Shown: positions 17,254-44,354, numbered from the stretch's first letter. The stretch: DNA of 64,000 nt from Deltaproteobacteria bacterium (GCA_029858205.1 JAOUFM010000003.1:210936-274935); one strand, 5' to 3'. Notes: a model not told the origin generated them from the sequence alone. Translations and numbers: made by a program.

Positions 17254-17919
17254 TCAAACCTGTCCTTTTTTGCTGATGTCTATGATCCGTGCCTGAACAA
17301 CCCCTGCCTCTATCAATGCCTTCGAAAGTTCCGCGCTTCTATAAAACGAAGTTATTACTATGGCCTCGGCTGCGCCGTCCCTGAGCTTTTCAATACCGAC
17401 AACCGGCATATCGAAAAACTTTTCGGTTCTTTCGATATCCGAAATGCAGACAAGCTCCAACCCGGCCTCCTTTAAAGACAGATACGCTATCTCGGCAACC
17501 TCATCTACGCCGCAGAAAGCGACTCTGCTTATGCCAAGCTCCTTCAACCTTGCAAACAGTTCAGCGAAATCCGTCCTCGCAACCCTGTAGAGGTTGGTAA
17601 AATTCCTCAGATGTTCGTAGGTGAGACGGGTCTTTTCAAGAAAACCATTTGGCGTAAGATAATATTTGTAGCGCTTTGCGGGAATACCGGAGACTGTTAT
17701 GTAACCTTTTGAAATGAGATTCTTTATGTAGGAATTTATGAGTCCCAGCGCAATACCGAGGTTTTTGCTTATTTCACGCTGGGTTAGGTCGCCGTTTCGC
17801 GATATCTCGTCAAGCACGAGAAGCGAACGGTACCCATCCATATGGCCGTTTTTATCCTCGCTGTTCATACTATGAACATACCATTTAATCAGGCATTTTG
17901 TCAAGTAAAACGCGTTCAT
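17254..17919 (-). CDS. Winged-helix transcriptional regulator with a C-terminal Rossmann-like domain. It is the last gene before the glycan cluster and divergent from the novel cassette.
   Basis: 'LDEISRNGDLTQREISKNLGIALGLINSYIKNLISKGYITV' wHTH. The real start is possibly the internal Met at 17868. Confidence 0.45.
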   Translation of the reverse strand: MNAFYLTKCLIKWYVHSMNSEDKNGHMDGYRSLLVLDEISRNGDLTQREISKNLGIALGLINSYIKNLISKGYITVSGIPAKRYKYYLTPNGFLEKTRLTYEHLRNFTNLYRVARTDFAELFARLKELGISRVAFCGVDEVAEIAYLSLKEAGLELVCISDIERTEKFFDMPVVGIEKLRDGAAEAIVITSFYRSAELSKALIEAGVVQARIIDISKKGQV

Positions 17920-18050
17920 GCAATGAACTGGCCGCGCGCAAAAAATTAGTAATTTACATTTGCCGGGGTTTTATTGTATGGTATATTACTTAAAATTCCC
18001 CGTGCTGTTTTATTAAAAAATATTCCAACTTCGCTATCTGAAAAGTAAAT

Positions 18051-18080
18051 TTGGCCATGCCAGTCTTTTTATGCTACAAT
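18051..18080 (+). promoter_or_regulatory. Candidate sigma-70 promoter for the 5-gene cassette: -35 TTGGCC (18051-56), 18-nt spacer, extended -10 TGcTACAAT (18072-80).
   Basis: Read directly from the sequence, about 22 nt upstream of the ATG at 18103; the leader is short with a weak SD. Confidence 0.3.
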
Positions 18081-18102: not shown

Positions 18103-20238
18103 ATGAATGCCAGAGATTTTGAAAAAGAGATAAAAATCCACATCGAAGCGCGCTACCCCATTTTGTGGCTCGTATCGTTCGAAGAGCGCCGGGTCGAGCG
18201 CATCGTCGAAAACCTCTGCAATACCAACGGGTTCAAGTTCTGGACATGGTCCGTGTCAAAAGGGCTCTACGGTAGCGACAAAAAAAAGAAAGAGCCCGTT
18301 GGCAGGGAAAAAATCCTTACCTCCATTGAGGAAAAGATAGTAAAGAACGAGGAAATCAATAACTTCTTCCTTTTAAAGGACATTGCCGGGTATTTCCAAT
18401 CCCACGAGTTCCTAAGAAAGTTTCGCGACATCCCGGGCACCATCGAGGACTATCGCTCGCTTAACACCGTCTGCATCCTCTCGCCAACACTTAGCGAGAT
18501 TCCGCCGGAGCTCGAAGAAGACATCGTGGTAATCGAGCTTAGCCTGCCCGAGTACGACGAAATCGAGGAGATGGTAAACACGAACTTTTCCAAATACATC
18601 CCCGCGTCGTGGCATTCGTCTACGAGGTCGGTTCTCTACAAATCGCTACAGGGCCTTTCTCTAGATAACATCAAAAGGGTCGTAAGAAAGGCAATCAGCC
18701 TGAATAGAGGCGTGCTGAACGAAGAATGCATCAAGTACATACAGGACGAGAAGCAGCAAATCATAAAAAAGCAGCAGATACTCGATTACTACCCCTACAG
18801 GGAAACTATCGACCACATCGGCGGCCTCGATGAAATAAAAAAATGGTTCGTCGAGAGAGAGCATGTCTTCCGTTTAAGCAAGGGCAAAATCGAAACTCTC
18901 GGCCTTGACGTTCCAAAAGGCCTCATGCTAATTGGCGTTCCGGGCTCCGGGAAAAGCCTCTGCTGCAAGGCCCTTGCCGGCATCTGGAACCTTCCGCTTC
19001 TAAGAATGGACGTAGGCCGTCTCTTTGGCTCGACAGTCGGAGAGTCCGAGAAAAATATTCGTAAGGCCATACAGCTTGCAGAGGCGGTAAGCCCCTGCAT
19101 AATGTGGATCGACGAGATAGACAAGGCATTCGGCGGAATATCCGGTTTCCAGGGGGATTCGGGCACGCAGCTAAGGGTGTTTGGCACCTTCATCACATGG
19201 CTGCAGGAAAAGGACAAACCCGTCTTTGTCATAGCAACTGCCAACGACCCGAAAAACCTTCCTCCCGAGCTATGGAGAAAAGGCCGCTACGACGAAGTGT
19301 TCTTCGTCGATCTTCCAAGCGCCGAGGAAAGAGACGAAATATTCAAGATACACCTCGAAAGAAGAGGACAAAAACCGTCGAACTTCCGCTTAAAGGAACT
19401 CTCGCAGAACTCGCAGGGCTACACGGGCGCCGAGATAGAGCAGGCCATAAAGGACGCGGTCGTTGCCACATTCAACACTCTGCACGAGGGAAAAGAAGCA
19501 AAAGAGGCCGACGCAATAATAGACGGCACCTTAACCCTCTCACTCGACACGGCAACGCTTCTCGAAGCGATACGGCACATAACGCCGCTCTCGGTTCTGA
19601 AAAAAGAGGAGATCGAGGCGCTTCGCGAATGGAGCCAGCAAAGGGCGCGGCCCGCATCGAAGTCTCTCTTCATGCAGCGCGCAGAGATGCTCTCTGACGC
19701 GGAAAAGCGCACTATCGCCATACACGAGGCCGGACATATAATAATGATGTGGCATCACTTCAATGGCACGCCGGTCTTCGTGAGCATAGATAACTACAAG
19801 GACACCTCTGCATTCACCGGCAAGAGCGAAAGCCTCGTAAACACACTTACCAAGCGCGACCTGGAAAAGGAAATCGGCGTGATGCTTGGCGGCATGGTGG
19901 CCGAAGACGAGGTCGGCGGAGCGGACTCGAAAACTGTTGGCGCCTCGCACGACCTTAGCGACGCAACGGCCAAGGCAAGAAGAATGGTCGTGGAATACGG
20001 CTTTGGCGACATAATGAAGAACACGAGCCTTGTAGAGCTCCAGGAATACGCCATGATGTCCGGGAAAGACATTCTCGAGGACATACAGAAGATAATCCAC
20101 GGCGCAAAGGAAGAGACCGAGTCCGTCATTTCGAAGAACAAAGCGCTTCTCGAAAAGCTCGCGGACAAGCTCGTGGCGGAGATACTCGTAAACGGCGAGG
20201 GATTAAGGAATTTCCTTACGCAGCACAATCTGGAATAA
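18103..20238 (+). CDS. Soluble FtsH-like AAA+ ATPase-zinc metalloprotease (Ycf46-like N-domain + AAA + peptidase M41), no transmembrane anchor
   Basis: Walker A 'GVPGSGKS', Walker B 'IMWIDEID', sensor-1 'ATANDP', Arg-finger region 'RKGRYDEV', 'HEAGH' zinc motif and downstream 'GASHDLSDATAKARRMVVEYGFG' (FtsH 'GASNDIERATEIARKMV'). The N-terminal ~240 aa ('ARYPILWLVSFEERRVERIV') are non-membrane. Confidence 0.8.
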   Translation: MNARDFEKEIKIHIEARYPILWLVSFEERRVERIVENLCNTNGFKFWTWSVSKGLYGSDKKKKEPVGREKILTSIEEKIVKNEEINNFFLLKDIAGYFQSHEFLRKFRDIPGTIEDYRSLNTVCILSPTLSEIPPELEEDIVVIELSLPEYDEIEEMVNTNFSKYIPASWHSSTRSVLYKSLQGLSLDNIKRVVRKAISLNRGVLNEECIKYIQDEKQQIIKKQQILDYYPYRETIDHIGGLDEIKKWFVEREHVFRLSKGKIETLGLDVPKGLMLIGVPGSGKSLCCKALAGIWNLPLLRMDVGRLFGSTVGESEKNIRKAIQLAEAVSPCIMWIDEIDKAFGGISGFQGDSGTQLRVFGTFITWLQEKDKPVFVIATANDPKNLPPELWRKGRYDEVFFVDLPSAEERDEIFKIHLERRGQKPSNFRLKELSQNSQGYTGAEIEQAIKDAVVATFNTLHEGKEAKEADAIIDGTLTLSLDTATLLEAIRHITPLSVLKKEEIEALREWSQQRARPASKSLFMQRAEMLSDAEKRTIAIHEAGHIIMMWHHFNGTPVFVSIDNYKDTSAFTGKSESLVNTLTKRDLEKEIGVMLGGMVAEDEVGGADSKTVGASHDLSDATAKARRMVVEYGFGDIMKNTSLVELQEYAMMSGKDILEDIQKIIHGAKEETESVISKNKALLEKLADKLVAEILVNGEGLRNFLTQHNLE

Positions 20239-20248
20239 GGGCCCCGCT

Positions 20249-20587
20249 ATGTCGTTTTTCACAAAGCTCAACACCGAACTCAAAAACAAACAGTACGTGC
20301 TCGCTGCCATAGCCGCCCTTAAGCAGACAGGCGAGATAAAGAACTACGCCATAAACGAAAAGAAGGAAAGCGTCGAAATAAACCGCGCCGGCGACATTAT
20401 ACAGGTAGTAAAAACAAAGACCGGCGAGTACGAACTGCAGGGAGACGCAAGAGTGGTAAGCGCCTTCTCGAGCAGGCTAAAGCAGCTCTACGCGTACGAG
20501 GCAATCAAAGACAACATGCCGCTGGACTTCGAGATAGCCGAAGAGATAGAAACCGCCGGAGAGATCCGCATCGTGCTTAAAGGCTAA
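20249..20587 (+). CDS. Small conserved hypothetical protein (112 aa), possibly DUF1257/Ycf35-like
   Basis: Sits 10 nt after the protease gene. It is charged, Lys/Glu-rich and cysteine-free. The family assignment is from memory only. Confidence 0.4.
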   Translation: MSFFTKLNTELKNKQYVLAAIAALKQTGEIKNYAINEKKESVEINRAGDIIQVVKTKTGEYELQGDARVVSAFSSRLKQLYAYEAIKDNMPLDFEIAEEIETAGEIRIVLKG

Positions 20588-20589
20588 AT

Positions 20590-20775
20590 ATGGGTAAAGA
20601 GATAAAAATAAAGATAACACCCGACGGCAAGGTCGAGATAGATTCGACCGTGTTCAAGGACTGTAAAGAGGTGGCCGAACACCTATCGAAGGTCATAGGA
20701 AAGGTCGAGGTCTTCACCATAAAAGAAGAACACGAGCGCGAAGAAAAACTTCGCATAAAAAAAGGCGACAAATAA
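20590..20775 (+). CDS. Small hypothetical protein (61 aa), possibly DUF2997-like
   Basis: Begins 2 nt after the previous stop (translational coupling). 'KIKITPDGKVEIDSTVFKDCKEVAEHL...' with a Lys/Glu-rich tail. Confidence 0.35.
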   Translation: MGKEIKIKITPDGKVEIDSTVFKDCKEVAEHLSKVIGKVEVFTIKEEHEREEKLRIKKGDK

Positions 20776-20779
20776 GCAC

Positions 20780-21364
20780 ATGGCATCGTCGATATTCATA
20801 GACACGCACGCGATAATCGAGAGGTCGCGTGTAAACGGCCCAGGACAGAGGCTGGTGGTCTTTTTCCAGGGCTGTCACAGGAACTGTCCTGGCTGCTTCA
20901 ATCCGGCAACGCACTCAATCGGCACTGGCGTCAAATACGGCATACGGGAGATATTCGCGCGTTTCCTCTCTAAAAACGTAAGCGGCTTAACTGTTAGCGG
21001 AGGTGAGCCGTTTCTGCAAAGCGCGGCGCTCTGTGAACTGCTTAAAACCGCAAAACGCGAACACGGCCTTACGACCGCCGTGTACACGGGATTCACGATA
21101 GAGGAAATACGTTCATCAACGGAGCTTAGCCCTGCGCTCGAGCACATAGACGTGCTCATAGACGGGGCGTTCGACGAAAACAACACAGAAAGGACAACTC
21201 TTGCAAGAGGTTCCACAAACCAGCGCCTTCACTTTCTCTCCGGCGTTTATTCGATAGATGATTTTATTTTGCCAGGCAAAGCGGAGATAATAATCAACAA
21301 GGACGGTTCGGTGGTAGAGACCGGATTTTCGAAGCCGGCGGGAATAAACTCCATCCTCTTGTAA
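20780..21364 (+). CDS. NrdG-family radical-SAM activase (glycyl-radical-enzyme activating protein-like, single 4Fe-4S cluster)
   Basis: 'VNGPGQRLVVFFQGCHRNCPGCFNPATH' (CX3CX2C), 'GLTVSGGEPF', 'AVYTGFTIEEI', 'VLIDGAFDEN...RGSTNQRLHFL' are colinear with E. coli NrdG. Confidence 0.75.
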   Translation: MASSIFIDTHAIIERSRVNGPGQRLVVFFQGCHRNCPGCFNPATHSIGTGVKYGIREIFARFLSKNVSGLTVSGGEPFLQSAALCELLKTAKREHGLTTAVYTGFTIEEIRSSTELSPALEHIDVLIDGAFDENNTERTTLARGSTNQRLHFLSGVYSIDDFILPGKAEIIINKDGSVVETGFSKPAGINSILL

Positions 21365-21377
21365 AACGACCCACACC

Positions 21378-24161
21378 ATGACGATAGAGAACTTCTTCAG
21401 GGACAATTCCGGCATAGCGCGCACAAGCGCAGTTGAGCAGCGCGACGCGGCGCTAAAATACCTGCGCTCGCTGCCAGAGTCTAGCGACAGGGCCGAGGAC
21501 TTCAAATCGGCGTACGCGTACATACGAAACATCAGCGACGCCGAAGAAATGCGAAACGCACTCATCGAGCTTGCCATCACGATGCCAAAGCACGGCCCGT
21601 GCATGGACCTGTTTAAAGAAGTGTTCCCCGGCGCCATCAACTCCACAGACGCCATACCCGAGCCCATACACCGCAAATCAACGCTTACGCGCCTTGTAGA
21701 CTGCGTGCCCGACAAACCGGAGTACGCCGAGGCATACGCGCGCGTCGTGGAAAAATACATCGAGGCCGCAGACAAGATAGACGACCGCTTTGCGCGGCGC
21801 TACGCGCTTGCGGAAATTGCATCGAGACTCAAACACAGGGACGAATACGAAGCCCTCATGCTCCATGCCATGAAGGTGAGCCTCGGGTTTGCCGGCCTTC
21901 CGGGCTTTAGGCAATACTCGCTTCCCGAGATAGCAAGGGAACTTCCGAAAAGCTGCGACGTGGAGGTCTACAGAAACCACACATTCCTCGGGCTTGCGTT
22001 CTCGCTGCCGCACAGGGGCGAGTTCCTCGAACTCTTCAAAAAGGCCCTGACCACGGCCATCGAGTCAACGGAGCACATCGTTGAGCCGTATTACAAGAAA
22101 TACGCCCTTCTCTTCATGGCCAACAGGCTGCCCGAGACAGCAGAGTTTTTACCGCTAAGAAAGAGCGCTTTCAGGGCCGCCCTTGCCTCGGTCGACACGC
22201 TCGCCGACAGCTTCGCCAGGCAGTACGGATATAACGAATTCCTAAAGGACGTGCCAAAGACGCGCGAATTCTCCGACATACTGCTCGATACGGTCGAGAA
22301 GAGCCTTCCGTTCTTTTCTCTAAGAAGCCAGATGTCGGACTACGAGCCCATAGAGATACTCGACCGGATACTGATCGTCGCGGACAAAAAAATATCGGAT
22401 TCGAAGAAAAAACATTACACCCGCTTCCATTACGCCGATTTTTTCCTGAAACAGCTGAACCTGATAGCCGATAACTTAAACGATGTGCGCCTTCTGGAAA
22501 TTCTAAGGCCCTACACGCACGTATGGGTAAGGCCAAAAACTTTCAGGGACTCGATACGCAAGGTGTTCGACAAGGTCTCGTCCTTAAAAGGCAGATACCA
22601 CGGCGCCGAAGTAGAGCGTCCACTTTATGTCAGCGAGGCATGCCTCGGCATAGACAAACGAAGCCGCACGGCATCCGTTATGGCGGATACGCGCGAAGGC
22701 TACGCGCTCTCGATAGACCTTGGCGCCACCAATACCGTTGTAATGCTTAAAAAACCCGGGGCATTCCCGGAATTCGTCAACATAGAAGGATTATCCGAAA
22801 CCATCGGAAGCGTTGCCTTCATAAGCACGGCAGTAGACAAGAACAACGACTTGATAGGCGCTGCGGCGCCGGCCCAGTCGCGCTCGAACAACATAAAAAA
22901 ACTGTTCATGGAAGGCGACGAAGAGGGGCGCGAGCTCATCGAGAAGTTTTTCCGCATCCTGTACTCCAGAATAAAGGAATCTGTCGAGGTGCCCGGGTTT
23001 TTCAAGAAACTTTCCGGCAGGATTTTCGATACCGTTTCCGTGACAGTGCCGGTCGGGTATACGGATTACAGCGGCGAACTTACCAGAATCATCGAAAAAT
23101 ACGCGGGCAGCGCGCGCATAAAGCTCGTGGAAGAGCCGCTTGCTGCGGCGATAGGCTATAACGTGGCGGAGAAAAAGGAAAAATTCGTCCTTGTTCTCGA
23201 CTTTGGCGGCTGCACGCTCGACCCGATGCTTTTAAGGCTCTCTACCGACATGACACACGTCATAGCAAAGCCCGACAGATCCAAGATGCTTGGCGGGCGC
23301 GACATAGACCGCTGGGTGGCCGAGTACGTGAACGAAAAGCATAACCTTAGGACCAACCCTTCGGGGCACGAGGCCCTGACTGCGGCAGAGGCGCTGAAAA
23401 TAGAACTTAGCGCCAAAAACTCGGCGAAGTTCGTGTTTGGCGGCCGCGATATCGCGGAACTTACGCGCATAGAGTTCGAGGAGCTTCTCTCGCGCAGAGG
23501 GTTCTACAGCGACATAGACAGGGAACTTTCGAACGTGCTAAAAAAGGCTTCGAAGCTCGGCGTTTATAAATCCATGATAGAGGCCGTCATCATAACCGGG
23601 GGCTCTTCGCAGATACCGTCGTTCAAGGAAAAGATATCTCACTACTTCCACAACCTGGCCGTGCAAAACGCGATATACGACCACAGCCCGCTGTCGTCGG
23701 TCGCAAGGGGCGCGGCCCTCTACGGCACGGCCTCGGTGCTGGACCGCCACCTGGCCATGGCGTACGCAATAAAGCACATTGCAAGGGAAGAGGAAAAACA
23801 GTTTGCCTACGAAATCGTACTCGAAAAGGGCGAATCGCTTCCGTTCAAAAAGACCTTGCGCTTTACTCCTGCCATGACGCTCGGTGGACAGAAGGAAATA
23901 TTTCTCGAACTCTTCGAGGTGCCCGATTCCCTTATCGTACGGCGCTGGATATCCGAGGGCGGCATGGAGTTCATAAAGCAAATACTTAAGCACACGCCCG
24001 ACGAACTCGATCTGAGGGCTTTCAAGACCGTCACGCTTTCATTCGACGCTCCTATAGAAGGAAGCACAGACATCACATTTATAGTGGAAGAGAACGGACG
24101 ATTGAAGGTGCGCTACGAAAAAGACGGCCGCGAACTTGCAACCGACATACACCTTCAGTAA
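21378..24161 (+). CDS. Large Hsp70/actin-fold ATPase with a ~430-aa N-terminal alpha-helical repeat domain
   Basis: Hsp70 phosphate-1 'IDLGATNTVV', phosphate-2 'VLDFGGCTLDPML', adenosine motif 'VIITGGSSQIPSF', 'LVEEPLAAAIGY'; 927 aa. Confidence 0.75.
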   Translation: MTIENFFRDNSGIARTSAVEQRDAALKYLRSLPESSDRAEDFKSAYAYIRNISDAEEMRNALIELAITMPKHGPCMDLFKEVFPGAINSTDAIPEPIHRKSTLTRLVDCVPDKPEYAEAYARVVEKYIEAADKIDDRFARRYALAEIASRLKHRDEYEALMLHAMKVSLGFAGLPGFRQYSLPEIARELPKSCDVEVYRNHTFLGLAFSLPHRGEFLELFKKALTTAIESTEHIVEPYYKKYALLFMANRLPETAEFLPLRKSAFRAALASVDTLADSFARQYGYNEFLKDVPKTREFSDILLDTVEKSLPFFSLRSQMSDYEPIEILDRILIVADKKISDSKKKHYTRFHYADFFLKQLNLIADNLNDVRLLEILRPYTHVWVRPKTFRDSIRKVFDKVSSLKGRYHGAEVERPLYVSEACLGIDKRSRTASVMADTREGYALSIDLGATNTVVMLKKPGAFPEFVNIEGLSETIGSVAFISTAVDKNNDLIGAAAPAQSRSNNIKKLFMEGDEEGRELIEKFFRILYSRIKESVEVPGFFKKLSGRIFDTVSVTVPVGYTDYSGELTRIIEKYAGSARIKLVEEPLAAAIGYNVAEKKEKFVLVLDFGGCTLDPMLLRLSTDMTHVIAKPDRSKMLGGRDIDRWVAEYVNEKHNLRTNPSGHEALTAAEALKIELSAKNSAKFVFGGRDIAELTRIEFEELLSRRGFYSDIDRELSNVLKKASKLGVYKSMIEAVIITGGSSQIPSFKEKISHYFHNLAVQNAIYDHSPLSSVARGAALYGTASVLDRHLAMAYAIKHIAREEEKQFAYEIVLEKGESLPFKKTLRFTPAMTLGGQKEIFLELFEVPDSLIVRRWISEGGMEFIKQILKHTPDELDLRAFKTVTLSFDAPIEGSTDITFIVEENGRLKVRYEKDGRELATDIHLQ

Positions 24162-36452: not shown

Positions 36453-38174
36453 TTACTTATCGGGCCCTATAGTCTGAAGTTTCAACGGTGCTGCTGCTTT
36501 TTCTATCTCGGCTGCCGGCAAACGCTCGCCCTTTTGTACTCTATCTCCGAGCGTACTATAATACTTCACCTTTTCCGGCAACTCTTTTATCACATACAAC
36601 AATGCAAGACATCTATACGCCCAGGGGTCTTTCGTATCATTTAACAATACCGCTGTTTTAAAATCGATTTCCGCCTTTTCCATATCCCCTTTTTTATTTC
36701 TTCTTTGAAAAGCATTGCCTCGCATAACATAGTGATTCCATGCTTTAGGGTTCGCCTTTATGCCTTCATTGTAGTCTATGATTGCTTCATCAAGCCTGTT
36801 TATACGGAAAAAATAATACCCCCGCTTAATACGGCTAAGGACTATCGCATCGGCATTTCCTTTGCCGACGTAGGAAAGCTCATGTGTCCAAAATGAGTAA
36901 TCGTCTCTCCAAATATTTATCTGGGACGAAGTCTTCATGGTAAGCAAAATCACGATAGCAGCCGCAATGGCTATCGCCCCGGCCTTTACAACGCGCATTT
37001 CTCTGTAACCGTAAAACGCCGCGAGCGCCGCGCCCACAAGCAGAAATAACGACAAGGATGGCAGATACATATACCTATCGGCCGCCACCTGCCCGCCGAC
37101 CTGAACAATACCGATAACAGGCAACAGCGTTATAACGTAAAAAGCCCACGCGGCGAGAAAATATGGCCGCTTTTTACAATACATAACACCAATCGCAGTT
37201 ATAAACCCAAAAAAGGATATTGCCAACAAGGTTTTTCCTGACCACAGAGATATATCTACGCTGTGCGGATAAAACGGCATAAGAACGTTCGGAAAAACGG
37301 TTTTTTCAAGGTAAAACACATAGGTCTGAAACATATGCGCCGCCCTGACAGACATCGGTTTGACCTCTAACGGCGCTATTGCACTCTTTTGGGCCATTAT
37401 GGTCGTAAGCGACACGGCAAGACTTAGCATTATAAACGGCACTTTGTTTACCGCTTCACTTATAAGATTCTTGAAACTATTTAGCCTCCCTAACGGATAG
37501 AAATCCAGTATAAGCAAAGTCACCGGTATGGAAACCGCCATCGGCTTGCTCATCATAGACAACACACAAAAAAACAGAGAATACGCATAAGCCCCGCCCC
37601 TGCTTGCCGATTCACCCGTTTTATAGCGAATATAAAACAACAGACAAAGAACATAAAACACCGCACAAAGCACATCCTTGCGCTCCGATACCCAGGCAAC
37701 ACTTTCCACATGCAACGGGTGTATGCCAAACAACATCGCGCAAACAAATGCGGCAAAAAATAGCCTGAACCTATCTGTCTCTTTGTTCAACACAACGGAT
37801 AACAGCTTATACCCGAACCAGAACACAAGCCCTGTGGCAATGGCATGCAAAGCTATATTCGTAAGATGATAGCCCATGGGATCCAAACCCCAGATCATAT
37901 AATCGAACTTATATGACAAATTAGTAAGCGGGTGCCAATTACCGGGATGCATAGAGGTAAATGCGGCGAAAATAAAATCCCACCCGTTTTGGGAAAGTAG
38001 TGGATTGTTTAAGACATAATCATTGTCGTCCCAGTCTACAAAACCAAAGGTGATGGCTTTCAAATATACAACAAAGGTAAACAATCCGATTGCCAGCGAT
38101 ATTGCCGGAACAAACCATTTTTTAGCAGCACTGTCGGAATTACCTGATTTTTCAAATATACTATTATTTTTCAT
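36453..38174 (-). CDS. TMTC-like GT-C glycosyltransferase (DUF1736-type membrane domain + C-terminal TPR repeats), paralog 1
   Basis: Multi-TM N-half with 'NWHPLTNLSYKFDY...GYHLTNIALHA' and 'HPLHVESVAWVSERKDVL', followed by a C-terminal TPR region. Confidence 0.6.
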   Translation of the reverse strand: MKNNSIFEKSGNSDSAAKKWFVPAISLAIGLFTFVVYLKAITFGFVDWDDNDYVLNNPLLSQNGWDFIFAAFTSMHPGNWHPLTNLSYKFDYMIWGLDPMGYHLTNIALHAIATGLVFWFGYKLLSVVLNKETDRFRLFFAAFVCAMLFGIHPLHVESVAWVSERKDVLCAVFYVLCLLFYIRYKTGESASRGGAYAYSLFFCVLSMMSKPMAVSIPVTLLILDFYPLGRLNSFKNLISEAVNKVPFIMLSLAVSLTTIMAQKSAIAPLEVKPMSVRAAHMFQTYVFYLEKTVFPNVLMPFYPHSVDISLWSGKTLLAISFFGFITAIGVMYCKKRPYFLAAWAFYVITLLPVIGIVQVGGQVAADRYMYLPSLSLFLLVGAALAAFYGYREMRVVKAGAIAIAAAIVILLTMKTSSQINIWRDDYSFWTHELSYVGKGNADAIVLSRIKRGYYFFRINRLDEAIIDYNEGIKANPKAWNHYVMRGNAFQRRNKKGDMEKAEIDFKTAVLLNDTKDPWAYRCLALLYVIKELPEKVKYYSTLGDRVQKGERLPAAEIEKAAAPLKLQTIGPDK

Positions 38175-38217: not shown

Positions 38218-39909
38218 TTACTTACTACTTCTTGCGACCTTAACCGGATATGCCGCTTTTTCGATATCTTCAAAAGCAAGTTTCTCACCCTTCCTGATTT
38301 TTTCCCCAAGAGATCTATAATAATCCGCTTTTTTCAGCATCCCCGAAGCCGTATATAACTTCCCGAGCTTAAAAAAAGCATCAAAATGCACGCCCCTGTC
38401 AAGCGCCAGCATCGTCTTGTAATCTACAGCAGCCTTTTCGAAATCACCTTTGGCCACATAAGCATCGCCTCTCAACATATAATCTCCCGGAATTAATGCC
38501 GTCGGGCTCAAACCTGCATCGTAGGCCGCAATTGCCGCTTCATATTGCCCTCGCAAATAAAAATAACCTCCGATTTTTATAAGCGCAAGCTGCTTCATGT
38601 CCGCCGCTACAGCGAATTTATACTGGTGCATCCACATTGCACCGTCATCGCGCCATACCTCTATCTGCGCCGACGCCTGCACGCTCAAAAGAACCGTAAT
38701 AAAAACAGCACCGACTACGGCAGATATTTTGACTATCATTTTGCGCCCGCCGCCAAGCAATACTCCAAGCACGCCTCCGGCAAGCAAAAACAAACCAATC
38801 GACGGAATATACATGTACCTGTCCGCTGCTATCTGCCCCCCGACCTGCACCAATCCTATCACCGGCAAAAGCGTCAAAACATAGTACGCCCACGCGGCAC
38901 CGATATACGGTCTTTTTTTCATCCACAAAACACACGCTGCGGTTACGGCCAGGAGCACAAGAAAAGACACTACCGTTTCCGACGAAAAGTACTTGAACTC
39001 CGCAGTTTGCTGATAAAACGGAAGGAGCGGCTCGGGATAAAACAACTTCTTGAGATAAAAAACCCAGCTTTGTATCGCATTGGCAATGCGCGTCTCGCCG
39101 GTCTTGTATTCAAGCGGCACAATGGCGGTACTTTGCGCCAAAACGGTTATAACCGACATAATCGCGCTAAGCGCGAGAAATGGGGCCTTTCTCACGGTTT
39201 CTCTGACCAGGCTCTTAAACGTATCGATTGTTCTGAGCGGATAAAAATCCAAAATCAACAAAACCACCGGCAGCGTCACGGCCATGGCCTTGCTCATAAG
39301 AGCCAGCGTAAATGCGCTCAATGACAAGGCATAAAACCACGCGGCGCGGTTCCCCTGCGCTCCTTTGTGCTCAAGATAGAATATAACGCTTAAAACAAAG
39401 AATATCGCCGAAAGTTGATCCTTTCGTTCGGATATCCAAGCAACGCTCTCTACATGCTGAGGATGAACGCCAAACAGCACTGCGCAAAAAACCGCTCCAA
39501 CAAGCCTTCTACCGTCGTTCTCGGCACCTGAAAATACTATGCCCAAAACCTTATACCCGCAAATCAACACCAGCATGGTTGCCAGTGAGTGCAGCATAAT
39601 ATTCGTTAGGTGATACCCCATGGGGTCCAGGCCCCATATTGCATAATCGAACTTATAAGACAGCATCGTAAGCGGATGCCAGTTATCCATATAAAACCGC
39701 GTAAACACGGTTTGCGTGAATTCCCACCAATCTTTTTTCAGCAAAGAATTACGGACAACATAGAAATTGTCGTCCCAATTCACAAAATCGAAGGTAATTG
39801 CCTTTAGATACAGCATGAACGTAAAAAGCCCTACGGCAAATGCCGCACCCGACACAACGTACTTTCTCGTGTCGTACCCGTTTTTATTGTTTTCATAAAT
39901 TCCAAACAT
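38218..39909 (-). CDS. TMTC-like GT-C glycosyltransferase with TPR repeats, paralog 2
   Basis: Same motifs ('NWHPLTMLSYKFDY', 'HPQHVESVAWISERKD'). Confidence 0.6.
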   Translation of the reverse strand: MFGIYENNKNGYDTRKYVVSGAAFAVGLFTFMLYLKAITFDFVNWDDNFYVVRNSLLKKDWWEFTQTVFTRFYMDNWHPLTMLSYKFDYAIWGLDPMGYHLTNIMLHSLATMLVLICGYKVLGIVFSGAENDGRRLVGAVFCAVLFGVHPQHVESVAWISERKDQLSAIFFVLSVIFYLEHKGAQGNRAAWFYALSLSAFTLALMSKAMAVTLPVVLLILDFYPLRTIDTFKSLVRETVRKAPFLALSAIMSVITVLAQSTAIVPLEYKTGETRIANAIQSWVFYLKKLFYPEPLLPFYQQTAEFKYFSSETVVSFLVLLAVTAACVLWMKKRPYIGAAWAYYVLTLLPVIGLVQVGGQIAADRYMYIPSIGLFLLAGGVLGVLLGGGRKMIVKISAVVGAVFITVLLSVQASAQIEVWRDDGAMWMHQYKFAVAADMKQLALIKIGGYFYLRGQYEAAIAAYDAGLSPTALIPGDYMLRGDAYVAKGDFEKAAVDYKTMLALDRGVHFDAFFKLGKLYTASGMLKKADYYRSLGEKIRKGEKLAFEDIEKAAYPVKVARSSK

Positions 39910-40276: not shown

Positions 40277-42043
40277 TCACAGCCCCTCGCCTTTGGACGC
40301 TGCCTTCACTTCTATCTGCACCGGACTTACCGACACCCAGAACTCCTTATCAGAAAGAACCTCGCCTCGTGAAAGACGCATATTAAGACTCTCGTAATAT
40401 CGCGCCTTTTTGTCATTACCTGCGCCTCGAAATAACAATGCAAGATATTCATACCCGAATGCAGCCCAGGCCTTGTTAAGCGCTACGGCTACCTTATAAT
40501 CCAAAATAGCCTTGTCAATTTCACCCTTTTTTTCGTATACAGGGGCTCTGACAGCATATAATATCCAGTTCTCCGGATTGGCATTTATCGCCATCGTCAG
40601 ATCGGCAATCGCTTCATCGACCCTTCCTATGGAAAACAAATGCATGGCACGTTTCGCAAGCGGCAAAGGGAACACTTTGCCATCGAAATGCTCTATCTGG
40701 TGTGTCCAAAGCGTATAAGAATCCTTCCATATCGATATCTGAAAAGATGTTTTAATCGTCATAAGAACCAATAGAGCCGCTACTGTGACCGCGATACCGG
40801 CTTTCACCGGTTTTGCATGAGGCAATAAGAACAATAGCGCTGCCATACCGGCGCCTGCAATCAAAAACAGACCTATGGATGGTATGTACATATACCTGTC
40901 GGCAGCGGCCTGCCCTCCGACCTGCAATATGCCTATTACAGGAAGAAGCGTCAAAACATAACTTGCCCAGACGGCAGCTACGTACGGTCGGCGGCGCAAC
41001 CAGACGATACTGATGGCCGTTATGCCCAGAGCGACTACAGCCGAAACAATAACAGATACGGAAAAAAACGAAATATTTGGCGTGGGAGCATAATACGGCA
41101 ACAAGACATCCGGAATAAGAGCTTTCCTGAGATAAAAAACATAGGCAGACAACGCATGCGCCAAACGCATGGACAACGGCTTGGATTCCAGGGTCAGCAT
41201 CCCGTGTTTTTGTATCAATATGGTAACAACAGAAACTGCCGCACTAAAAACAAAGAACGGGATCTTATTTATGATTTCGGCGACCAATGTTTTTAACGAC
41301 GAAATTCTCATCAATGGATAAAAATCAAGGATAAGAAGAACAACGGGTAGCGTTACGGCCATTGGCTTACTTAACAACGCAAGAACAAAAGCGAAAAGGG
41401 AAAGCACATAAAAAGTCTTTTTTCTCACCTCATCGACATGACGATACCTAAGATATAAAACCATGCTCGCCACAAAAAATAATGCCGAGAGAATATCCTT
41501 ACGCTCGGATACCCACGCCACACTTTCAACATGTAGCGGATGTACTCCAAAAAGAATGGCCGCTATCGATGCGGCCGCTATCACGGCCCTCCGTCTATTA
41601 TCTCCTTTGAAAACAACAAGAAAAATCCTGTAACCGAAGACAAACACCAAGCCCGTGGCAACCGTATGCAGTATCACATTGGTCAAATGATACCCCATGG
41701 GATCGTCACCCCAAAAAATGTAATCGATCTTATACGACATCATCGTCAACGGATGCCAGTTACTGGCAAAGGTATAAATAAAAACATCGTTTAGGAAATT
41801 CCATCCGGTTTTCTCAAACAGGACATTCCCGAGAATATACTGATTATCGTCCCAGTTGACAAAACCAAAGGTAATGGCCTTGAGGTAAACAATGAAGGTA
41901 ACAAACGCGCAAAGCAGGCAAGCTACATACGCCGCCGACCTCGCATCGAGCATTCTTCCTACGATTCCTGTGCGCGCCGTGTCGACGCTTTTTCCCATTA
42001 AATTATCATTTTGCATTTTCATCCAAGCAGCAAGAAGTTCCAT
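40277..42043 (-). CDS. TMTC-like GT-C glycosyltransferase with TPR repeats, paralog 3
   Basis: Same motifs ('NWHPLTMMSYKIDY', 'HPLHVESVAWVSERKD'). Confidence 0.6.
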   Translation of the reverse strand: MELLAAWMKMQNDNLMGKSVDTARTGIVGRMLDARSAAYVACLLCAFVTFIVYLKAITFGFVNWDDNQYILGNVLFEKTGWNFLNDVFIYTFASNWHPLTMMSYKIDYIFWGDDPMGYHLTNVILHTVATGLVFVFGYRIFLVVFKGDNRRRAVIAAASIAAILFGVHPLHVESVAWVSERKDILSALFFVASMVLYLRYRHVDEVRKKTFYVLSLFAFVLALLSKPMAVTLPVVLLILDFYPLMRISSLKTLVAEIINKIPFFVFSAAVSVVTILIQKHGMLTLESKPLSMRLAHALSAYVFYLRKALIPDVLLPYYAPTPNISFFSVSVIVSAVVALGITAISIVWLRRRPYVAAVWASYVLTLLPVIGILQVGGQAAADRYMYIPSIGLFLIAGAGMAALLFLLPHAKPVKAGIAVTVAALLVLMTIKTSFQISIWKDSYTLWTHQIEHFDGKVFPLPLAKRAMHLFSIGRVDEAIADLTMAINANPENWILYAVRAPVYEKKGEIDKAILDYKVAVALNKAWAAFGYEYLALLFRGAGNDKKARYYESLNMRLSRGEVLSDKEFWVSVSPVQIEVKAASKGEGL

Positions 42044-42920: not shown

Positions 42921-44354
42921 ATGACGCCGCTCCTTCTCTCTAAAATAATCGAAGAACTATGGCCACAACTCGACGGCTCACTTGTAAGTTCCGTGCACCA
43001 GCCCGACGACAAGACCGTGCTGCTAAGGCTCATGACGCGGCGCGGCCAGAGGACGCTACTTGTATCCACGCATCCTCTTTTTTCGCGCCTTAATCTATTT
43101 ACGGAAAAGCGCGAGAACCCGGCAACCCCGCCGCGCTTTTGCGCGCTTCTTAGGAGCAGGATAGAAGGACTAAGAATCACGGAAATACGCCAAAAACCAG
43201 ACGAACGCATAGCCAAAATCGCTCTCGGCGACAATGCCTTCACGCTCGTAATGGAGCTTACCGGGAAATCCTCGAACATCATTTTACTCGACAATAAAGG
43301 GGTTATTGTCGATGCGCTAAGAATCTTCGCGCCGGAGACGTCGGTGCGAGCTGTAATGCCAGGAATAACTCTTGCCGCTCTTCCCAAACAAGAGATATTA
43401 AAAGAGTCCGCACCGAAAATCGAACCAGCGGACAACGAAACATGGAACGAAGCAGTTGAAAAATATTTTTCCGCAGCCGAGGAAAAGGAGAGATTTTTAA
43501 CGCTCAAAAAAAAGCTTCTTGGCGCGATATCGGGCGCGGCAAAGCACGCAAAGCGAAAGCTCGAAAACAGGCTTAACGACAAAACTGCCGCCAACAAAGA
43601 CCTGCTATCCTCCAAAACAGGCGACATAATATCGGCCAACCTTCATAAACTCAAAAAAGGCATGCACGAGGCTTTGCTTGCCGATATATATTCGGATACT
43701 AATAACGAAGTCTTGGTAAAGCTCGACCCGACGCTCTCTGCCTCGGAAAACGCGGCCAAATACTATAAACGCGCCAAAAAAGCCGCAACCGCGCTAAAAC
43801 TTCTTGAAAGGAGCATCCCGGAGGTCGAGGCTGAGATTCTAAAACTTGAAAATCTTACCAAAGAATGCGCGGCAATAAACACCGAAAAAGACGCTCTGAC
43901 GCTGGAGAAAAAGCTCATCGCCGCCGGATACATGAAAAAGGAAGAAACTCCTGGCGTAAGGAAGAAAGAGGCCTCGCTGCCCATACGCCAGGAAAAGACC
44001 TCGGACGGTTTTACACTTCTTATAGGAAAGAGCTCGAAAGGAAACGACCTGCTTATAAAGGAATACGCATCTGACGAAGACCTATGGTTTCACGCAAAAG
44101 GGATTGCCGGAGCGCACGTTGTTCTGAAATCAAAGGGGCGCGCAAAGCCTCCGAGTGAAAAAGCCATCCACGAAGCAGCCGTAACCGCGGCCTCCTCCTC
44201 TAAGGCATCTGCGTCGACAAAGCTCGAGGTAATATGCGCAAGCGTAAGGCACGTAAAGAAGCCCAAGGGCGCAAAGCCCGGAATGGTTACTGTAACCGAA
44301 TACAAAACCCTTATAGTAAAACCGGACAGGGCTCAGATAAAATCGAAGAAATAA
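42921..44354 (+). CDS. rqcH: NFACT-family protein (RqcH/FbpA-like ribosome-quality-control factor, short form)
   Basis: N-terminal NFACT-N ('...VSSVHQPDDKTVLLRL'), coiled-coil middle, C-terminal NFACT-R/DUF814 'WFHAKGIAGAHVVLK'. Confidence 0.65.
   Translation: MTPLLLSKIIEELWPQLDGSLVSSVHQPDDKTVLLRLMTRRGQRTLLVSTHPLFSRLNLFTEKRENPATPPRFCALLRSRIEGLRITEIRQKPDERIAKIALGDNAFTLVMELTGKSSNIILLDNKGVIVDALRIFAPETSVRAVMPGITLAALPKQEILKESAPKIEPADNETWNEAVEKYFSAAEEKERFLTLKKKLLGAISGAAKHAKRKLENRLNDKTAANKDLLSSKTGDIISANLHKLKKGMHEALLADIYSDTNNEVLVKLDPTLSASENAAKYYKRAKKAATALKLLERSIPEVEAEILKLENLTKECAAINTEKDALTLEKKLIAAGYMKKEETPGVRKKEASLPIRQEKTSDGFTLLIGKSSKGNDLLIKEYASDEDLWFHAKGIAGAHVVLKSKGRAKPPSEKAIHEAAVTAASSSKASASTKLEVICASVRHVKKPKGAKPGMVTVTEYKTLIVKPDRAQIKSKK

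What the first reader, a model, noticed from the sequence alone, without database searches (positions are those of the whole stretch)
21378..24161. 927-aa protein fusing an N-terminal helical-repeat domain to an Hsp70/actin-fold ATPase
Residues ~440-790 contain the three diagnostic Hsp70 nucleotide-binding motifs: phosphate-1 'IDLGATNTVV', phosphate-2 'VLDFGGCTLDP' and adenosine 'ITGGSSQIPSF'. Bona fide DnaK lacks the ~430-aa N-terminal region. That region is made of predicted alpha-helical repeats (HEAT/TPR-like by composition). The C-terminal ~140 aa could be a truncated substrate-binding-like beta domain.

Such a fused, dedicated Hsp70 paralog suggests a specialised client (perhaps the small proteins) or a scaffolding role in the cassette. 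It could also be an actin-like sugar- or acyl-kinase fold rather than a chaperone.
Basis: seen in the sequence. Interest (0 to 1): 0.7.

Follow-up and report, generated by a model that had tools for sequence, protein, structure and literature searches.

The report
Lidless Hsp70 with solenoid, conserved operon
The 927-residue protein is a real but unusual Hsp70 chaperone (helical-repeat arm in front, no lid behind) that always travels in a five-gene operon with a soluble FtsH-type protease, two tiny Ycf35/DUF2997-like proteins and a radical-SAM activating enzyme, an uncharacterised machine found only in uncultured sulfate-reducer-type bacteria.

Summary
ORF 21378-24161 (+) encodes 927 aa, and the three Hsp70 ATP-site motifs sit at residues 446-455, 606-616 and 739-749.

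**What the protein is**
- Sequence, profile and structure comparisons all place residues ~441-925 in Hsp70 proper: nucleotide-binding domain plus substrate-binding beta domain.
- The alpha-helical lid is missing. The sugar-kinase alternative is excluded.
- Residues 1-312 are seven ~41-residue TPR-like helical hairpins. Their nearest sequence relatives are the sensor arms of STAND NTPases.
- Residues 313-425 form a family-specific, highly conserved connector.
- Catalytic residues are invariant. Positions used for J-domain contact and interdomain coupling are systematically different.

**Its context**
- About 75 species-level MAGs carry the family (Thermodesulfobacteriota/"Deltaproteobacteria", a few Nitrospirota).
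- It is almost always the last gene of one fixed operon: soluble FtsH-type AAA+/M41 protease, a DUF1257(Ycf35)-like 112-aa protein, a DUF2997 61-aa protein, an NrdG/PflA-type radical SAM activase, then this Hsp70.
- No paper found describes this operon.

**Reading**
- Best reading: a dedicated, ATP-driven client-holding subunit of a lineage-specific protein modification and quality-control machine. This mechanism is inferred.
- Rival: a conflict (defence) system.
- Classification: a new variant of a known kind ("DnaK derivate"); moderately high interest.

The parts
17953..18080 (+). Divergent intergenic region with sigma-70-like promoter candidates upstream of the operon
   Evidence: The consensus scan finds TTGCCG-16-TATATT and TTGGCC-18-TACAAT (sequence). 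No CIRCE element is present. These are pattern matches only.
18103..20238 (+). Gene 1: soluble FtsH-type AAA+/M41 zinc protease, 711 aa. It has a unique N-domain at residues 1-232, an AAA module at ~233-520 and an M41 peptidase at ~529-700.
   Evidence: Pfam AAA 6e-30 and Peptidase_M41 2e-19. NCBIfam FtsH_fam 1e-50, below cutoff. Walker A (GVPGSGKS), Walker B (WIDEID), HEAGH and GASHD are conserved in 53 orthologues. The AAA module is closest to Cdc48/VAT D2. It is 68-76% identical across loci.
20249..20587 (+). Gene 2: p112, a DUF1257/Ycf35-like small protein (112 aa)
   Evidence: Pfam DUF1257 is sub-threshold: E 0.016 for the window protein, and 8 of 23 orthologues match with best E 1e-3. 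The N-terminus is an invariant MSF, compared with MSH in Ycf35 (PMC13060386). The length is fixed at 112-113 aa and it is always adjacent to the DUF2997 gene.
20590..20775 (+). Gene 3: p61, a DUF2997 small protein (61 aa) with an invariant Cys25
   Evidence: Pfam DUF2997 matches 37 of 37 orthologues over the whole 47-position profile, best E 4e-6. Conserved core: I.IRIT.DGKVEIDS.VF.DCKEVA.HL.
20780..21364 (+). Gene 4: NrdG/PflA-type radical SAM activating-enzyme homologue (194 aa)
   Evidence: Pfam Fer4_12 7e-34. NCBIfam NrdG TIGR02491 scores 117 bits against a cutoff of 126. The closest solved structure is PFL-AE at 1e-8. Conserved features are NGPGxR, C32x3C36x2C39 and GGEPF.
21378..24161 (+). 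Gene 5 (the finding): 927-aa lidless Hsp70 with an N-terminal solenoid
21378..22313 (+). Residues 1-312: seven ~41-residue TPR-like helical hairpins, with a recurring (E)LPK(T).EF motif at the turns
   Evidence: Self-hhalign. AF2 helices. The exhaustive HMM search hits repeat arrays of STAND NTPases. Foldseek finds only generic TPR/HEAT solenoids. This is the fastest-evolving part of the protein, at 40% mean pairwise identity.
22314..22652 (+). Residues 313-425: family-specific conserved connector (DSKK.R, RPYTHVWV.P, YHG.E.ERP)
   Evidence: It holds 15 invariant columns and 55% mean pairwise identity. Profile positions ~300-425 are found only in this family among 1.8 billion representatives. 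Residues 411-422 are confidently placed only in the full-length model.
22653..22697 (+). Residues 426-440: variable, low-confidence flexible linker
   Evidence: pLDDT below 50 and 14% pairwise identity.
22698..23741 (+). Residues 441-788: Hsp70 nucleotide-binding domain. Motifs are phosphate-1 at 22713-22742, phosphate-2 at 23193-23225 and adenosine at 23592-23624.
23742..24158 (+). Residues 789-927: remodelled interdomain linker (D-R-H-L-A-M) plus an Hsp70 substrate-binding beta domain. There is no alpha-helical lid.
   Evidence: hhalign aligns to DnaK up to residue 489. Foldseek alignments of ~540 columns cover NBD plus SBD-beta, and the best hit is DnaK lacking SBD-alpha. The AF2 model is all-beta over 795-925.

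Best explanation
**What it is (shown).** The protein is a DnaK-derived Hsp70. It keeps a catalytically competent nucleotide-binding domain and the peptide-clamping beta domain. It has lost the helical lid. In front it has gained a TPR-like solenoid of seven 41-residue hairpins and a family-specific connector.

**Where it sits (shown).** It is the last gene of a tightly packed operon with 2-13 nt gaps. The operon is vertically inherited and holds five genes:
- a soluble FtsH-type AAA+/M41 protease;
- a Ycf35(DUF1257)-like protein;
- a DUF2997 protein;
- an NrdG/PflA-type radical SAM activase;
- this Hsp70.

**How it most likely works (inferred).** The five products act as one dedicated protein-handling machine.
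- The solenoid is the docking arm. It may bind the small-protein pair, the protease N-domain or the client.
- The NBD and SBD-beta use ATP to capture and hold an extended segment of a single specialised client.
- That segment is presented to the radical SAM enzyme for a protein-radical (glycyl-type) modification, or to the FtsH-type protease for processing or removal of damaged product.

**Co-chaperones (inferred).** The lid is gone, the DnaK R167-equivalent is mostly acidic, T11 is Ala and the VLLL linker is replaced. The protein therefore probably does not use the canonical DnaJ/GrpE cycle. It is likely regulated in cis or by its operon partners.
For: **Hsp70 identity**
-.
- Catalytic residues are invariant, while T11 is Ala in 36/36, the R167-equivalent is E/D in 34/36, and the linker is R-H-L.
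- Lid absence.

**Solenoid and repeats**
-.

**Operon**
- Same order and strand in essentially every locus with enough upstream DNA. The four partners cluster in 56-61 of about 78 loci.
- Tiny intergenic gaps and no internal + strand terminator.

**Partners are intact enzymes**
- The protease keeps Walker A/B, HEAGH and GASHD.
- The rSAM keeps CX3CX2C, GGE and the activase-type NGPGxR.

**Vertical, chromosomal context**
- Clade-level flank synteny and housekeeping neighbours.
- None on viral contigs.

**Independent parallel**
- In cyanobacteria, DUF2997-DUF1257(ycf35) genes are clustered with the [4Fe-4S] ferredoxin Fed7.
- Fed7 binds a DnaJ-like Hsp70 co-chaperone, and the two are fused as DnaJ-Fer in algae (PMC4284462).
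- The trio 'Ycf35/DUF2997 + Fe-S protein + Hsp70 system' therefore recurs.
Against: - No client, interaction or activity is shown. All mechanistic steps are inferred from gene linkage.
- No glycyl-radical-enzyme-like substrate is encoded in or near the cassette, and no RVxG[FWY]-type glycine loop was recognised in any of the five proteins.
- p112's assignment to DUF1257 is sub-threshold.
- One MAG (L032) has the Hsp70 gene without its partners within 2.4 kb.
- Restriction-modification genes have inserted inside the cassette three times. That pattern is more typical of accessory or defence regions.
- The solenoid's closest sequence relatives are STAND conflict-system sensors.
Confidence: 0.45

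Rival explanations
1. The cassette is an NTP-dependent conflict (anti-phage or abortive-infection) system. The STAND-like solenoid of the Hsp70 would sense an invader protein. The Hsp70 ATPase would act as the switch. The FtsH-type protease and/or the radical SAM enzyme, acting on the small proteins or on nucleotides in a viperin-like way, would be the effectors. It would be analogous to the 'FtsH ternary systems' of Kaur et al. 2020.
For: - Solenoid repeats match the sensor arms of NACHT/AAA_16/nSTAND1/KAP NTPases that carry TIR or trypsin effectors.
- R-M modules are inserted inside the cassette in L058, L060 and L077, and a HEPN/MNT pair lies beside the orphan copy in L032.
- PADLOC gives weak hits: IetA 4.5e-32, pVip 1.3e-7 and PDC-M61B 5.5e-5.
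- Kaur et al. describe FtsH-type AAA+ together with a protein bearing a large all-alpha N-domain, a radical SAM and a peptide gene.
Against: - The PADLOC hits are generic domain similarity. The same proteins score much better to FtsH/Cdc48 (1e-50) and NrdG (5e-34).
- No MoxR or vWA component is present, and those define the Kaur systems.
- The architecture is constant, with no effector swapping. The protease is 68-76% identical across about 60 species, which is unusually conserved for a defence gene.
- Flank synteny is at clade level, next to housekeeping genes.
- The family is absent from 2.9 million viral contigs.
Confidence: 0.2
2. The module is a Fe-S / redox stress unit. The Hsp70 would behave like HscA, delivering or protecting the [4Fe-4S] cluster of the radical SAM protein (or of other Fe-S proteins). 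The Ycf35/DUF2997 pair would act as adaptor and the protease would remove damaged apo-proteins.
For: - The best NCBIfam hits of the NBD are HscA models (1e-28, against DnaK at 1e-23).
- The operon encodes a [4Fe-4S] radical SAM enzyme.
- In cyanobacteria, DUF2997-Ycf35 genes cluster with Fed7, which binds a DnaJ-like protein and is needed under iron limitation and oxidative stress.
Against: - The HscA scores are about 7-fold below the family cutoffs (97-100 bits against cutoffs of 620-708), and the margin over DnaK is small.
- No IscU/HscB-like scaffold or J-protein lies in the cassette or the window.
- The SBD loops differ from DnaK and HscA.
- This reading overlaps with the best explanation rather than excluding it.
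Confidence: 0.15
3. The protein is an actin/MreB-like cytoskeletal or scaffold ATPase rather than a chaperone, or a sugar/acyl kinase.
For: - Pfam MreB_Mbl matches at 3e-15.
- One homologue is named 'actin-like ATPase involved in cell morphogenesis' by JGI.
Against: - Pfam HSP70 scores 95 bits against 56 for MreB.
- The Hsp70-specific K70 and E171 equivalents are invariant.
- An Hsp70 SBD-beta follows the NBD. Actins, MreB and kinases do not have one.
Confidence: 0.03

Closest known systems
DnaK / HscA (canonical bacterial Hsp70s)
   Same: The two-lobed actin-fold NBD has phosphate-1, phosphate-2 and adenosine motifs. The catalytic Asp/Lys/Glu/Asp/Thr set is invariant. An interdomain linker is followed by the beta-sandwich substrate-binding domain.
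   Different: - There is no alpha-helical lid.
- A 425-residue N-terminal solenoid and connector have been added.
- T11 is Ala, the R167-equivalent is acidic, and the VLLL linker is replaced by R-H-L-A/G-M.
- Scores are 7-10-fold below the DnaK and HscA equivalog cutoffs.
- It is not linked to dnaJ/grpE or hscB/iscU in the window.
'DnaK derivates' of Myxococcales and other bacteria (FEBS J 2026 review, PMC13580251)
   Same: It fits the general class of NBD-containing Hsp70 relatives with a shortened or deleted lid and extra N- or C-terminal domains. The review describes this class as unexplored 'dark matter'.
   Different: This family has a defined solenoid and connector and an obligatory five-gene operon context. 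The review does not describe this (no mention of radical SAM or TPR fusions).
FtsH ternary conflict systems (Kaur, Burroughs, Iyer, Aravind 2020, PMC7159879)
   Same: Both combine an FtsH-type AAA+ protein, a protein with a large all-alpha N-terminal domain, a radical SAM enzyme and small standalone peptide genes. Both occur in deltaproteobacteria.
   Different: - The published systems are defined by a MoxR AAA+ and vWA pair and by a double-AAA FtsH component. Neither MoxR nor vWA is present here.
- The all-alpha domain here is fused to Hsp70 instead.
- The FtsH-like protein here has an M41 peptidase. Its N-domain shows no detectable similarity to an AAA domain (hhalign probability 1%).
Cyanobacterial/plastid ycf35 (DUF1257) - DUF2997 - fed7 cluster, with the DnaJ-like partner of Fed7 (PMC4284462)
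   Same: An adjacent DUF1257-like and DUF2997 gene pair is linked to a [4Fe-4S] protein and, through DnaJ, to the Hsp70 system.
   Different: - The Fe-S protein here is a radical SAM activase rather than a ferredoxin.
- The Hsp70 link is a fused, operon-encoded Hsp70 rather than a J-protein.
- A protease is added.
- p112 is only a sub-threshold DUF1257 match.
Glycyl-radical-enzyme activases NrdG / PflA
   Same: The operon's radical SAM protein shares the small size, the N-terminal NGPGxR loop, the CX3CX2C cluster motif and the GGE SAM motif.
   Different: No NrdD- or PFL-type glycyl radical enzyme is adjacent. The protein has a conserved ~45-residue C-terminal extension. Its score is just below the NrdG equivalog cutoff (117 against 126 bits).
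FtsH (membrane AAA+ zinc protease)
   Same: It has a classical-clade AAA module followed by an M41 peptidase, with HExxH and the Asp third ligand.
   Different: There are no transmembrane or periplasmic segments. A unique 232-residue soluble N-domain is present instead, shared at 28% identity with M41-less AAA proteins of Verrucomicrobiota. The AAA module is nearer to Cdc48/VAT D2.

Membership tests
Hsp70 superfamily (Pfam PF00012) | Actin-fold nucleotide-binding domain that scores above the family threshold | tested here: met
Hsp70 superfamily (Pfam PF00012) | Catalytic and nucleotide-binding residues (DnaK D8, K70, E171, D194, T199; GG of the adenosine motif) | tested here: met
   All are invariant in 36 family members. 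The D201 equivalent is D in 19 and N in 16.
Hsp70 superfamily (Pfam PF00012) | Beta-sandwich substrate-binding domain after the NBD | tested here: met
   hhalign aligns to DnaK 390-489. Foldseek alignments of ~540 columns include SBD-beta. The AF2 model is all-beta over 795-925.
Canonical DnaK (NCBIfam TIGR02350 / NF001413 equivalogs) | Full-length score above the equivalog cutoff | tested here: not met
   82.7 bits against a cutoff of 822, and 83.2 against 648.
Canonical DnaK (NCBIfam TIGR02350 / NF001413 equivalogs) | Alpha-helical lid (SBD-alpha) | tested here: not met
   The protein ends at the equivalent of DnaK ~residue 495. There are no helices after residue 790.
Canonical DnaK (NCBIfam TIGR02350 / NF001413 equivalogs) | Hydrophobic VLLL linker, T11, and R167 for J-domain coupling | tested here: not met
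   The linker is R-H-L-(A/G)-M. T11 is Ala in 36/36. The R167-equivalent is E/D in 34/36. The alignment around R167 contains a one-residue gap, so that mapping is approximate.
Canonical DnaK (NCBIfam TIGR02350 / NF001413 equivalogs) | Functional partnership with DnaJ and GrpE | tested here: inconclusive
   Neither is in the window or in the cassette. hrcA-grpE-dnaJ lies 5-8 kb away in 12-21 related loci, which is only clade-level synteny.
HscA (TIGR01991) | Equivalog score and linkage to hscB/iscU | tested here: not met
   96.9 bits against a cutoff of 708. There are no isc genes in the cassette.
TPR / HEAT repeat families (Pfam clans) | Sequence match to a curated repeat model | tested here: not met
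   Residues 1-441 have no Pfam hit even at E <= 10. The fold is a generic alpha-solenoid. The repeats do match TPR_12-type arrays of a STAND protein, P0130, so the domain is TPR-like by fold and distant sequence only.
FtsH ternary system (Kaur et al. 2020) | MoxR AAA+ and vWA core pair | tested here: not met
   No MoxR or vWA domain is found in any of the five proteins or the flanking ORFs.
FtsH ternary system (Kaur et al. 2020) | FtsH-type component with an inactive N-terminal AAA copy followed by an active one | tested here: inconclusive
   The active AAA copy is present. The N-domain shows no detectable AAA similarity by hhalign (probability 1%).
DUF2997 (PF11211) | Profile match for p61 | tested here: met
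   37 of 37 orthologues match the full profile, best E 4e-6. The window copy scores 20.1 bits against a gathering cutoff of 24.1, so it is a divergent member.
DUF1257 / Ycf35 (PF06868) | Profile match for p112 | tested here: inconclusive
   8 of 23 orthologues match, best E 1e-3, all below the cutoff. Adjacency to DUF2997 and the MS[FH] N-terminus give supporting context.
Glycyl-radical-enzyme activase (NrdG TIGR02491) | Equivalog score; CX3CX2C; (D/N)GxGxR loop | tested here: inconclusive
   117.3 bits against a cutoff of 126.1. The motifs are present and conserved. The cognate glycyl radical protein has not been identified.

The most novel reading that the evidence does not exclude
The operon is a previously unrecognised protein-radical system. 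The NrdG-like activase would install a glycyl-type (backbone) radical, or another radical modification, on a cassette-encoded protein rather than on a PFL-fold enzyme. Candidate targets are the Ycf35-like/DUF2997 pair and the invariant YHGxExERP loop of the Hsp70 connector. The lidless Hsp70 would pry open and present the target loop. The soluble FtsH-type protease would clear oxygen-cleaved product. If true, it would also give the first functional handle on Ycf35/DUF2997, which are conserved across cyanobacteria and plastids and linked there to Fed7 and a DnaJ-like protein.
Probability: 0.1. Interest if true: 0.85.

Novelty: new variant of a known kind. Interest (0 to 1): 0.6.

Why it matters
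Bacterial "DnaK derivates" are numerous but functionally blank (PMC13580251). This family is unusually tractable. Its architecture is fixed, and its obligatory partners are recognisable enzymes: a soluble FtsH-type protease and a glycyl-radical-activase-type radical SAM.

That context makes several ideas testable:
- that an Hsp70 module works without a lid or J-protein and is regulated by a fused solenoid;
- that chaperone, protease and radical enzyme are coupled in one pathway;
- that the enigmatic Ycf35/DUF2997 proteins of cyanobacteria and plastids work with Fe-S proteins and Hsp70 systems.

If the cassette is instead a defence system, it would be a new one, built on an Hsp70 switch.

Tried and rejected
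- **DnaK or HscA orthology.** Rejected by equivalog scores.
- **N-domain of the protease as a degenerate AAA copy (Kaur-type FtsH).** No signal by hhalign. The fold could not be tested.
- **Heat-shock (HrcA/CIRCE) control.** No CIRCE element in the window at up to 3 mismatches.
- **Viral or mobile origin.** No relatives on viral contigs.
- **Sixth operon gene in the window.** The DNA downstream of the Hsp70 encodes a convergent cytidylyltransferase-like ORF. The TPR gene that follows in 37 other loci is absent here.
- **Glycyl-radical motif.** I looked for an RVxG[FWY]-type loop in the conserved columns of all five proteins and recognised none. The invariant YHGxExERP loop is noted only as a speculative candidate.
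- **Wider relatives of p112.** The word-indexed search found only cassette orthologues.
- **AFDB50 fold search of the N-domain.** The library was unavailable.
- **Remote relatives of the protease N-domain in Verrucomicrobiota.** They lack M41, the small proteins and the Hsp70, so they do not extend the system.
Full report
**1. Observation**

The ORF at 21378-24161 (+) is real: 927 aa with an ATG start. The three quoted motifs lie at residues 446-455, 606-616 and 739-749. Pfam HSP70 matches residues 551-783 at E 4.7e-27, 94.9 bits against a cutoff of 20.6. MreB_Mbl is a weaker second at 56 bits. The best PDB sequence hits are BiP/DnaK/Ssb NBDs at about 1e-18. Some of these alignments span residues 440-831, which covers the NBD, the linker and the start of the SBD. 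About 54 full-length homologues at 37-48% identity (880-996 aa) exist, annotated only as "Hsp70 family protein".

**2. Anatomy of the protein**

An AlphaFold2 model built on 36 homologues has mean pLDDT 81.5. It shows:
- an all-helical region at 18-406;
- a disordered stretch at 425-439;
- an alpha/beta NBD at 443-785;
- an all-beta domain at 795-925.

*Fold comparison.*
- Foldseek against the PDB returns only Hsp70s in the top 50, aligned over ~540 columns (NBD plus SBD-beta). The best hit is M. genitalium DnaK lacking SBD-alpha.
It runs from DnaK residue 2 to 489, through beta-strand 8 of the SBD, where the protein ends.
- The protein therefore has NBD, linker and SBD-beta, and no lid.

*Functional residues.*

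| DnaK position | Role | State in 36 family members |
|---|---|---|
| D8, K70, E171, D194, T199 | catalysis, nucleotide binding | invariant |
| GG of the adenosine motif | nucleotide binding | invariant |
| T11 | couples ATP binding to substrate release in Hsc70 (established knowledge) | always Ala |
| R167-equivalent | J-domain contact | E/D in 34 of 36 (mapping approximate; one-residue gap in the alignment) |
| D201-equivalent | metal coordination | D in 19, N in 16 |
| VLLL linker | interdomain coupling | replaced by a near-invariant R-H-L-(A/G)-M |

*N-terminal region.*
- Residues 1-312 contain a strong internal repeat of ~41 residues. Self-hhalign at offsets of 41, 82 and 182 reaches E 2.6e-29. 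That gives about seven helical hairpins with (E)LPK(T).EF turns.
- Pfam sees nothing here even at E <= 10.
- Foldseek finds only generic TPR/HEAT solenoids such as LGN, CTPR, OGT and VPS35, none at E <= 1e-3.
- An exhaustive profile search of 1.8 billion representatives found 797 hits. After 13 family members, the hits are 1,000-3,500-aa proteins whose repeat arrays match profile positions ~5-300 in 4-10 stretches.
- Six of these were scanned. They are STAND-type NTPases (AAA_16, NACHT, NPHP3_N, nSTAND1, KAP), some with TIR or trypsin domains and one with TPR_12 arrays over the matching region.
- Profile positions ~300-425 occur only in this family. This is the connector with DSKK.R, RPYTHVWV.P and YHG.E.ERP.

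*Conservation by domain.*

| Domain | Mean pairwise identity |
|---|---|
| Solenoid (1-312) | 40% |
| Connector (313-425) | 55% |
| Linker (426-440) | 14% |
| NBD (441-788) | 56% |
| SBD-beta (789-927) | 51% |

*An unexplained detail.* Residues 411-422 form a strand with pLDDT ~90 in the full-length model. In the isolated N-domain model the same residues score below about 65. This segment therefore probably docks on the Hsp70 part.

**3. Context**

Upstream on the same strand, with gaps of 10, 2, 4 and 13 nt, lie four genes.

| Gene | Coordinates | Size | Identity | Key evidence |
|---|---|---|---|---|
| FtsH-like protease | 18103-20238 | 711 aa | AAA + Peptidase_M41, no membrane segment | Walker A/B, HEAGH and GASHD conserved; AAA nearest Cdc48/VAT D2; unique 232-aa N-domain |
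| p112 | 20249-20587 | 112 aa | weak DUF1257 | 8 of 23 orthologues match, best E 1e-3; invariant N-terminal MSF (Ycf35 proteins start MSH, PMC13060386) |
| p61 | 20590-20775 | 61 aa | DUF2997 | 37 of 37 orthologues match |
| radical SAM | 20780-21364 | 194 aa | Fer4_12, NrdG/PflA type | NrdG 117 bits against cutoff 126; PFL-AE closest structure; NGPGxR, CX3CX2C and GGE conserved |

- No + strand terminator is predicted inside the operon.
- Sigma-70-like promoters are predicted upstream, and no CIRCE element is present.
- The next ORF downstream is convergent and cytidylyltransferase-like.
- The rest of the window is core chromosome: FtsY, CysS, GlnA, EPS genes and RqcH-like NFACT. It contains no DnaJ, GrpE or HrcA.

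**4. Conservation of the cassette**

- A scan of one genome per species (185,579 species) found 75 loci. Almost all are uncultured Thermodesulfobacteriota/"Deltaproteobacteria" MAGs, with a few Nitrospirota.
- In every locus with enough upstream DNA except one, the order FtsH-like, p112, p61, rSAM, Hsp70 is kept on one strand. Three further contigs show the same.

| Component | Identity to the window copy across loci |
|---|---|
| FtsH-like protease | 68-76% |
| p112 | 46-64% |
| p61 | 49-81% |
| radical SAM | 47-64% |
| Hsp70 fusion | 37-52% |

- Clustering of flanking ORFs shows no other universal neighbour. There is only clade-level synteny: a 147-aa TPR gene just downstream in 37 loci, then LPG synthase, hemN-like, hrcA, grpE and dnaJ in 12-25 loci. 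The window shares a MarR/UDP-glucose-dehydrogenase flank with 6 loci. This pattern indicates vertical chromosomal inheritance.
- No relative occurs on viral contigs.
- Exceptions: L032 has the Hsp70 gene alone beside a HEPN/MNT pair. Restriction-modification genes are inserted within the cassette in L058, L060 and L077.
- The protease N-domain has 28%-identical relatives in Verrucomicrobiota. These are N-domain plus AAA only, next to an ECF sigma factor, without M41, the small proteins or the Hsp70.

**5. Interpretation**

*Shown.* This is a lidless, catalytically intact Hsp70 derivative. It is fused to a TPR-like solenoid and a private connector. It is genetically locked to a soluble FtsH-type protease, a Ycf35-like/DUF2997 pair and a glycyl-radical-activase-type radical SAM enzyme.

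*Inferred.* The five products form one machine.
- The solenoid is the docking arm.
- The NBD and SBD-beta hold an extended segment of a dedicated client.
- The radical SAM enzyme modifies that client.
- The protease processes or removes it.
- The remodelled T11, R167 and linker positions, the missing lid and the absence of a J-protein argue for regulation in cis or by operon partners.

*An independent parallel.* In cyanobacteria, DUF2997 and ycf35 (DUF1257) are clustered with fed7. Fed7 is a [4Fe-4S] ferredoxin that binds a DnaJ-like protein, and the two are fused as DnaJ-Fer in algae (PMC4284462). The association "Ycf35/DUF2997 + Fe-S protein + Hsp70 system" therefore recurs.

*Rivals.*
- Conflict system (0.2). 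Supported by the STAND-like repeats, the R-M insertions, weak PADLOC hits and the analogy to the Kaur FtsH ternary systems. Opposed by the extreme conservation, the fixed architecture, the core-genome context and the absence of MoxR/vWA.
- HscA-like Fe-S maturation module (0.15). This overlaps with the main reading.
- Cytoskeletal protein or kinase (0.03). Rejected.

**6. Comparison with what is known, and novelty**

- The 2026 review of Hsp70 diversification recognises "DnaK derivates" with deleted lids and added terminal domains. It describes them as unexplored "dark matter" (PMC13580251). This protein belongs to that broad class.
- It is not DnaK or HscA.
- It is not a Kaur FtsH ternary system, because MoxR and vWA are absent.
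- No paper in the searchable library describes the operon.
- I classify it as a new variant of a known kind.
- The protein-level finding is solid and moderately interesting. The system-level finding, a conserved chaperone-protease-radical SAM-Ycf35/DUF2997 operon, is the more interesting part.

Noticed in passing
L058 6628-8264; L060 5595-8149; L077 408-1880: Restriction-modification modules are inserted inside the five-gene cassette in three independent MAGs. L058 carries a Dam-like methyltransferase plus an HNH-type nuclease. L060 carries a Dcm-like methyltransferase, an REase-like ORF and a Vsr-like ORF. L077 carries an N4/N6 methyltransferase plus a 122-aa ORF. The insertions lie between p61 and the rSAM gene, or between the rSAM gene and the Hsp70 gene.
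   Followed up: partly
L032 1-5078: This is the only locus where the Hsp70 fusion has 2.4 kb of upstream DNA but none of its four partners. Upstream are a HEPN (130 aa) and MNT nucleotidyltransferase (100 aa) pair on the opposite strand, and a FadL-like outer-membrane protein.
   Followed up: partly
L001 16530-18658; L003 16198-18649 (and 12-21 further loci): In a large sub-clade the cassette lies 5-8 kb from an hrcA-grpE-dnaJ cluster in which dnaJ directly follows grpE, with no dnaK between them. I did not determine whether the canonical dnaK is elsewhere in those genomes.
   Followed up: no
L001 10864-11295 and 36 other loci (absent from the window): A ~145-aa TPR protein gene follows the Hsp70 gene immediately in about half of the loci, sometimes on the opposite strand. 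It may be an accessory sixth component. The Hsp70 itself ends in an invariant Leu followed by a nearly invariant Gln.
   Followed up: partly
window 21378-24161, residues 411-422 (about 22608-22643): The segment after the invariant YHGxExERP motif is a confident strand (pLDDT ~90) only in the full-length model. In the isolated N-domain model the same residues score below about 65. This suggests it docks on the NBD or SBD, possibly as an intramolecular pseudo-substrate.
   Followed up: no
L084 8012-11404; L085 5562-10547: Verrucomicrobiota encode an AAA protein with a homologous N-domain (28% identity) but no M41 peptidase. It lies directly after an ECF sigma factor and a small ORF. L085 also has a Fer4_12-type radical SAM gene 0.9 kb upstream. 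The gene calls there look frameshifted.
   Followed up: partly
L069 8959-11554; L071 4391-7230: The Hsp70-fusion reading frame is split in two in these MAGs. This could be a frameshift, an assembly error or a pseudogene.
   Followed up: no
window 36453-38174 (-) and 40277-42043 (-): Two large ORFs (573 and 588 aa) have no Pfam match at E <= 1e-5. They flank a 563-aa TPR-containing ORF at 38218-39909.
   Followed up: no
window 42921-44354 (+) and 44333-46264 (-): The first ORF is an NFACT/RqcH-like ribosome-quality-control protein. The second is a 643-aa Lnb_N/DUF7840/DUF7843 protein. I first suspected the 643-aa ORF was DnaK because of its length, but it is not.
   Followed up: yes
window 17254-17919 (-): A MarR-family EPS-associated regulator (TIGR04176-like, below cutoff) is transcribed divergently from the cassette and shares its 183-bp promoter region. 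The same flank is shared with about 6 related loci.
   Followed up: partly
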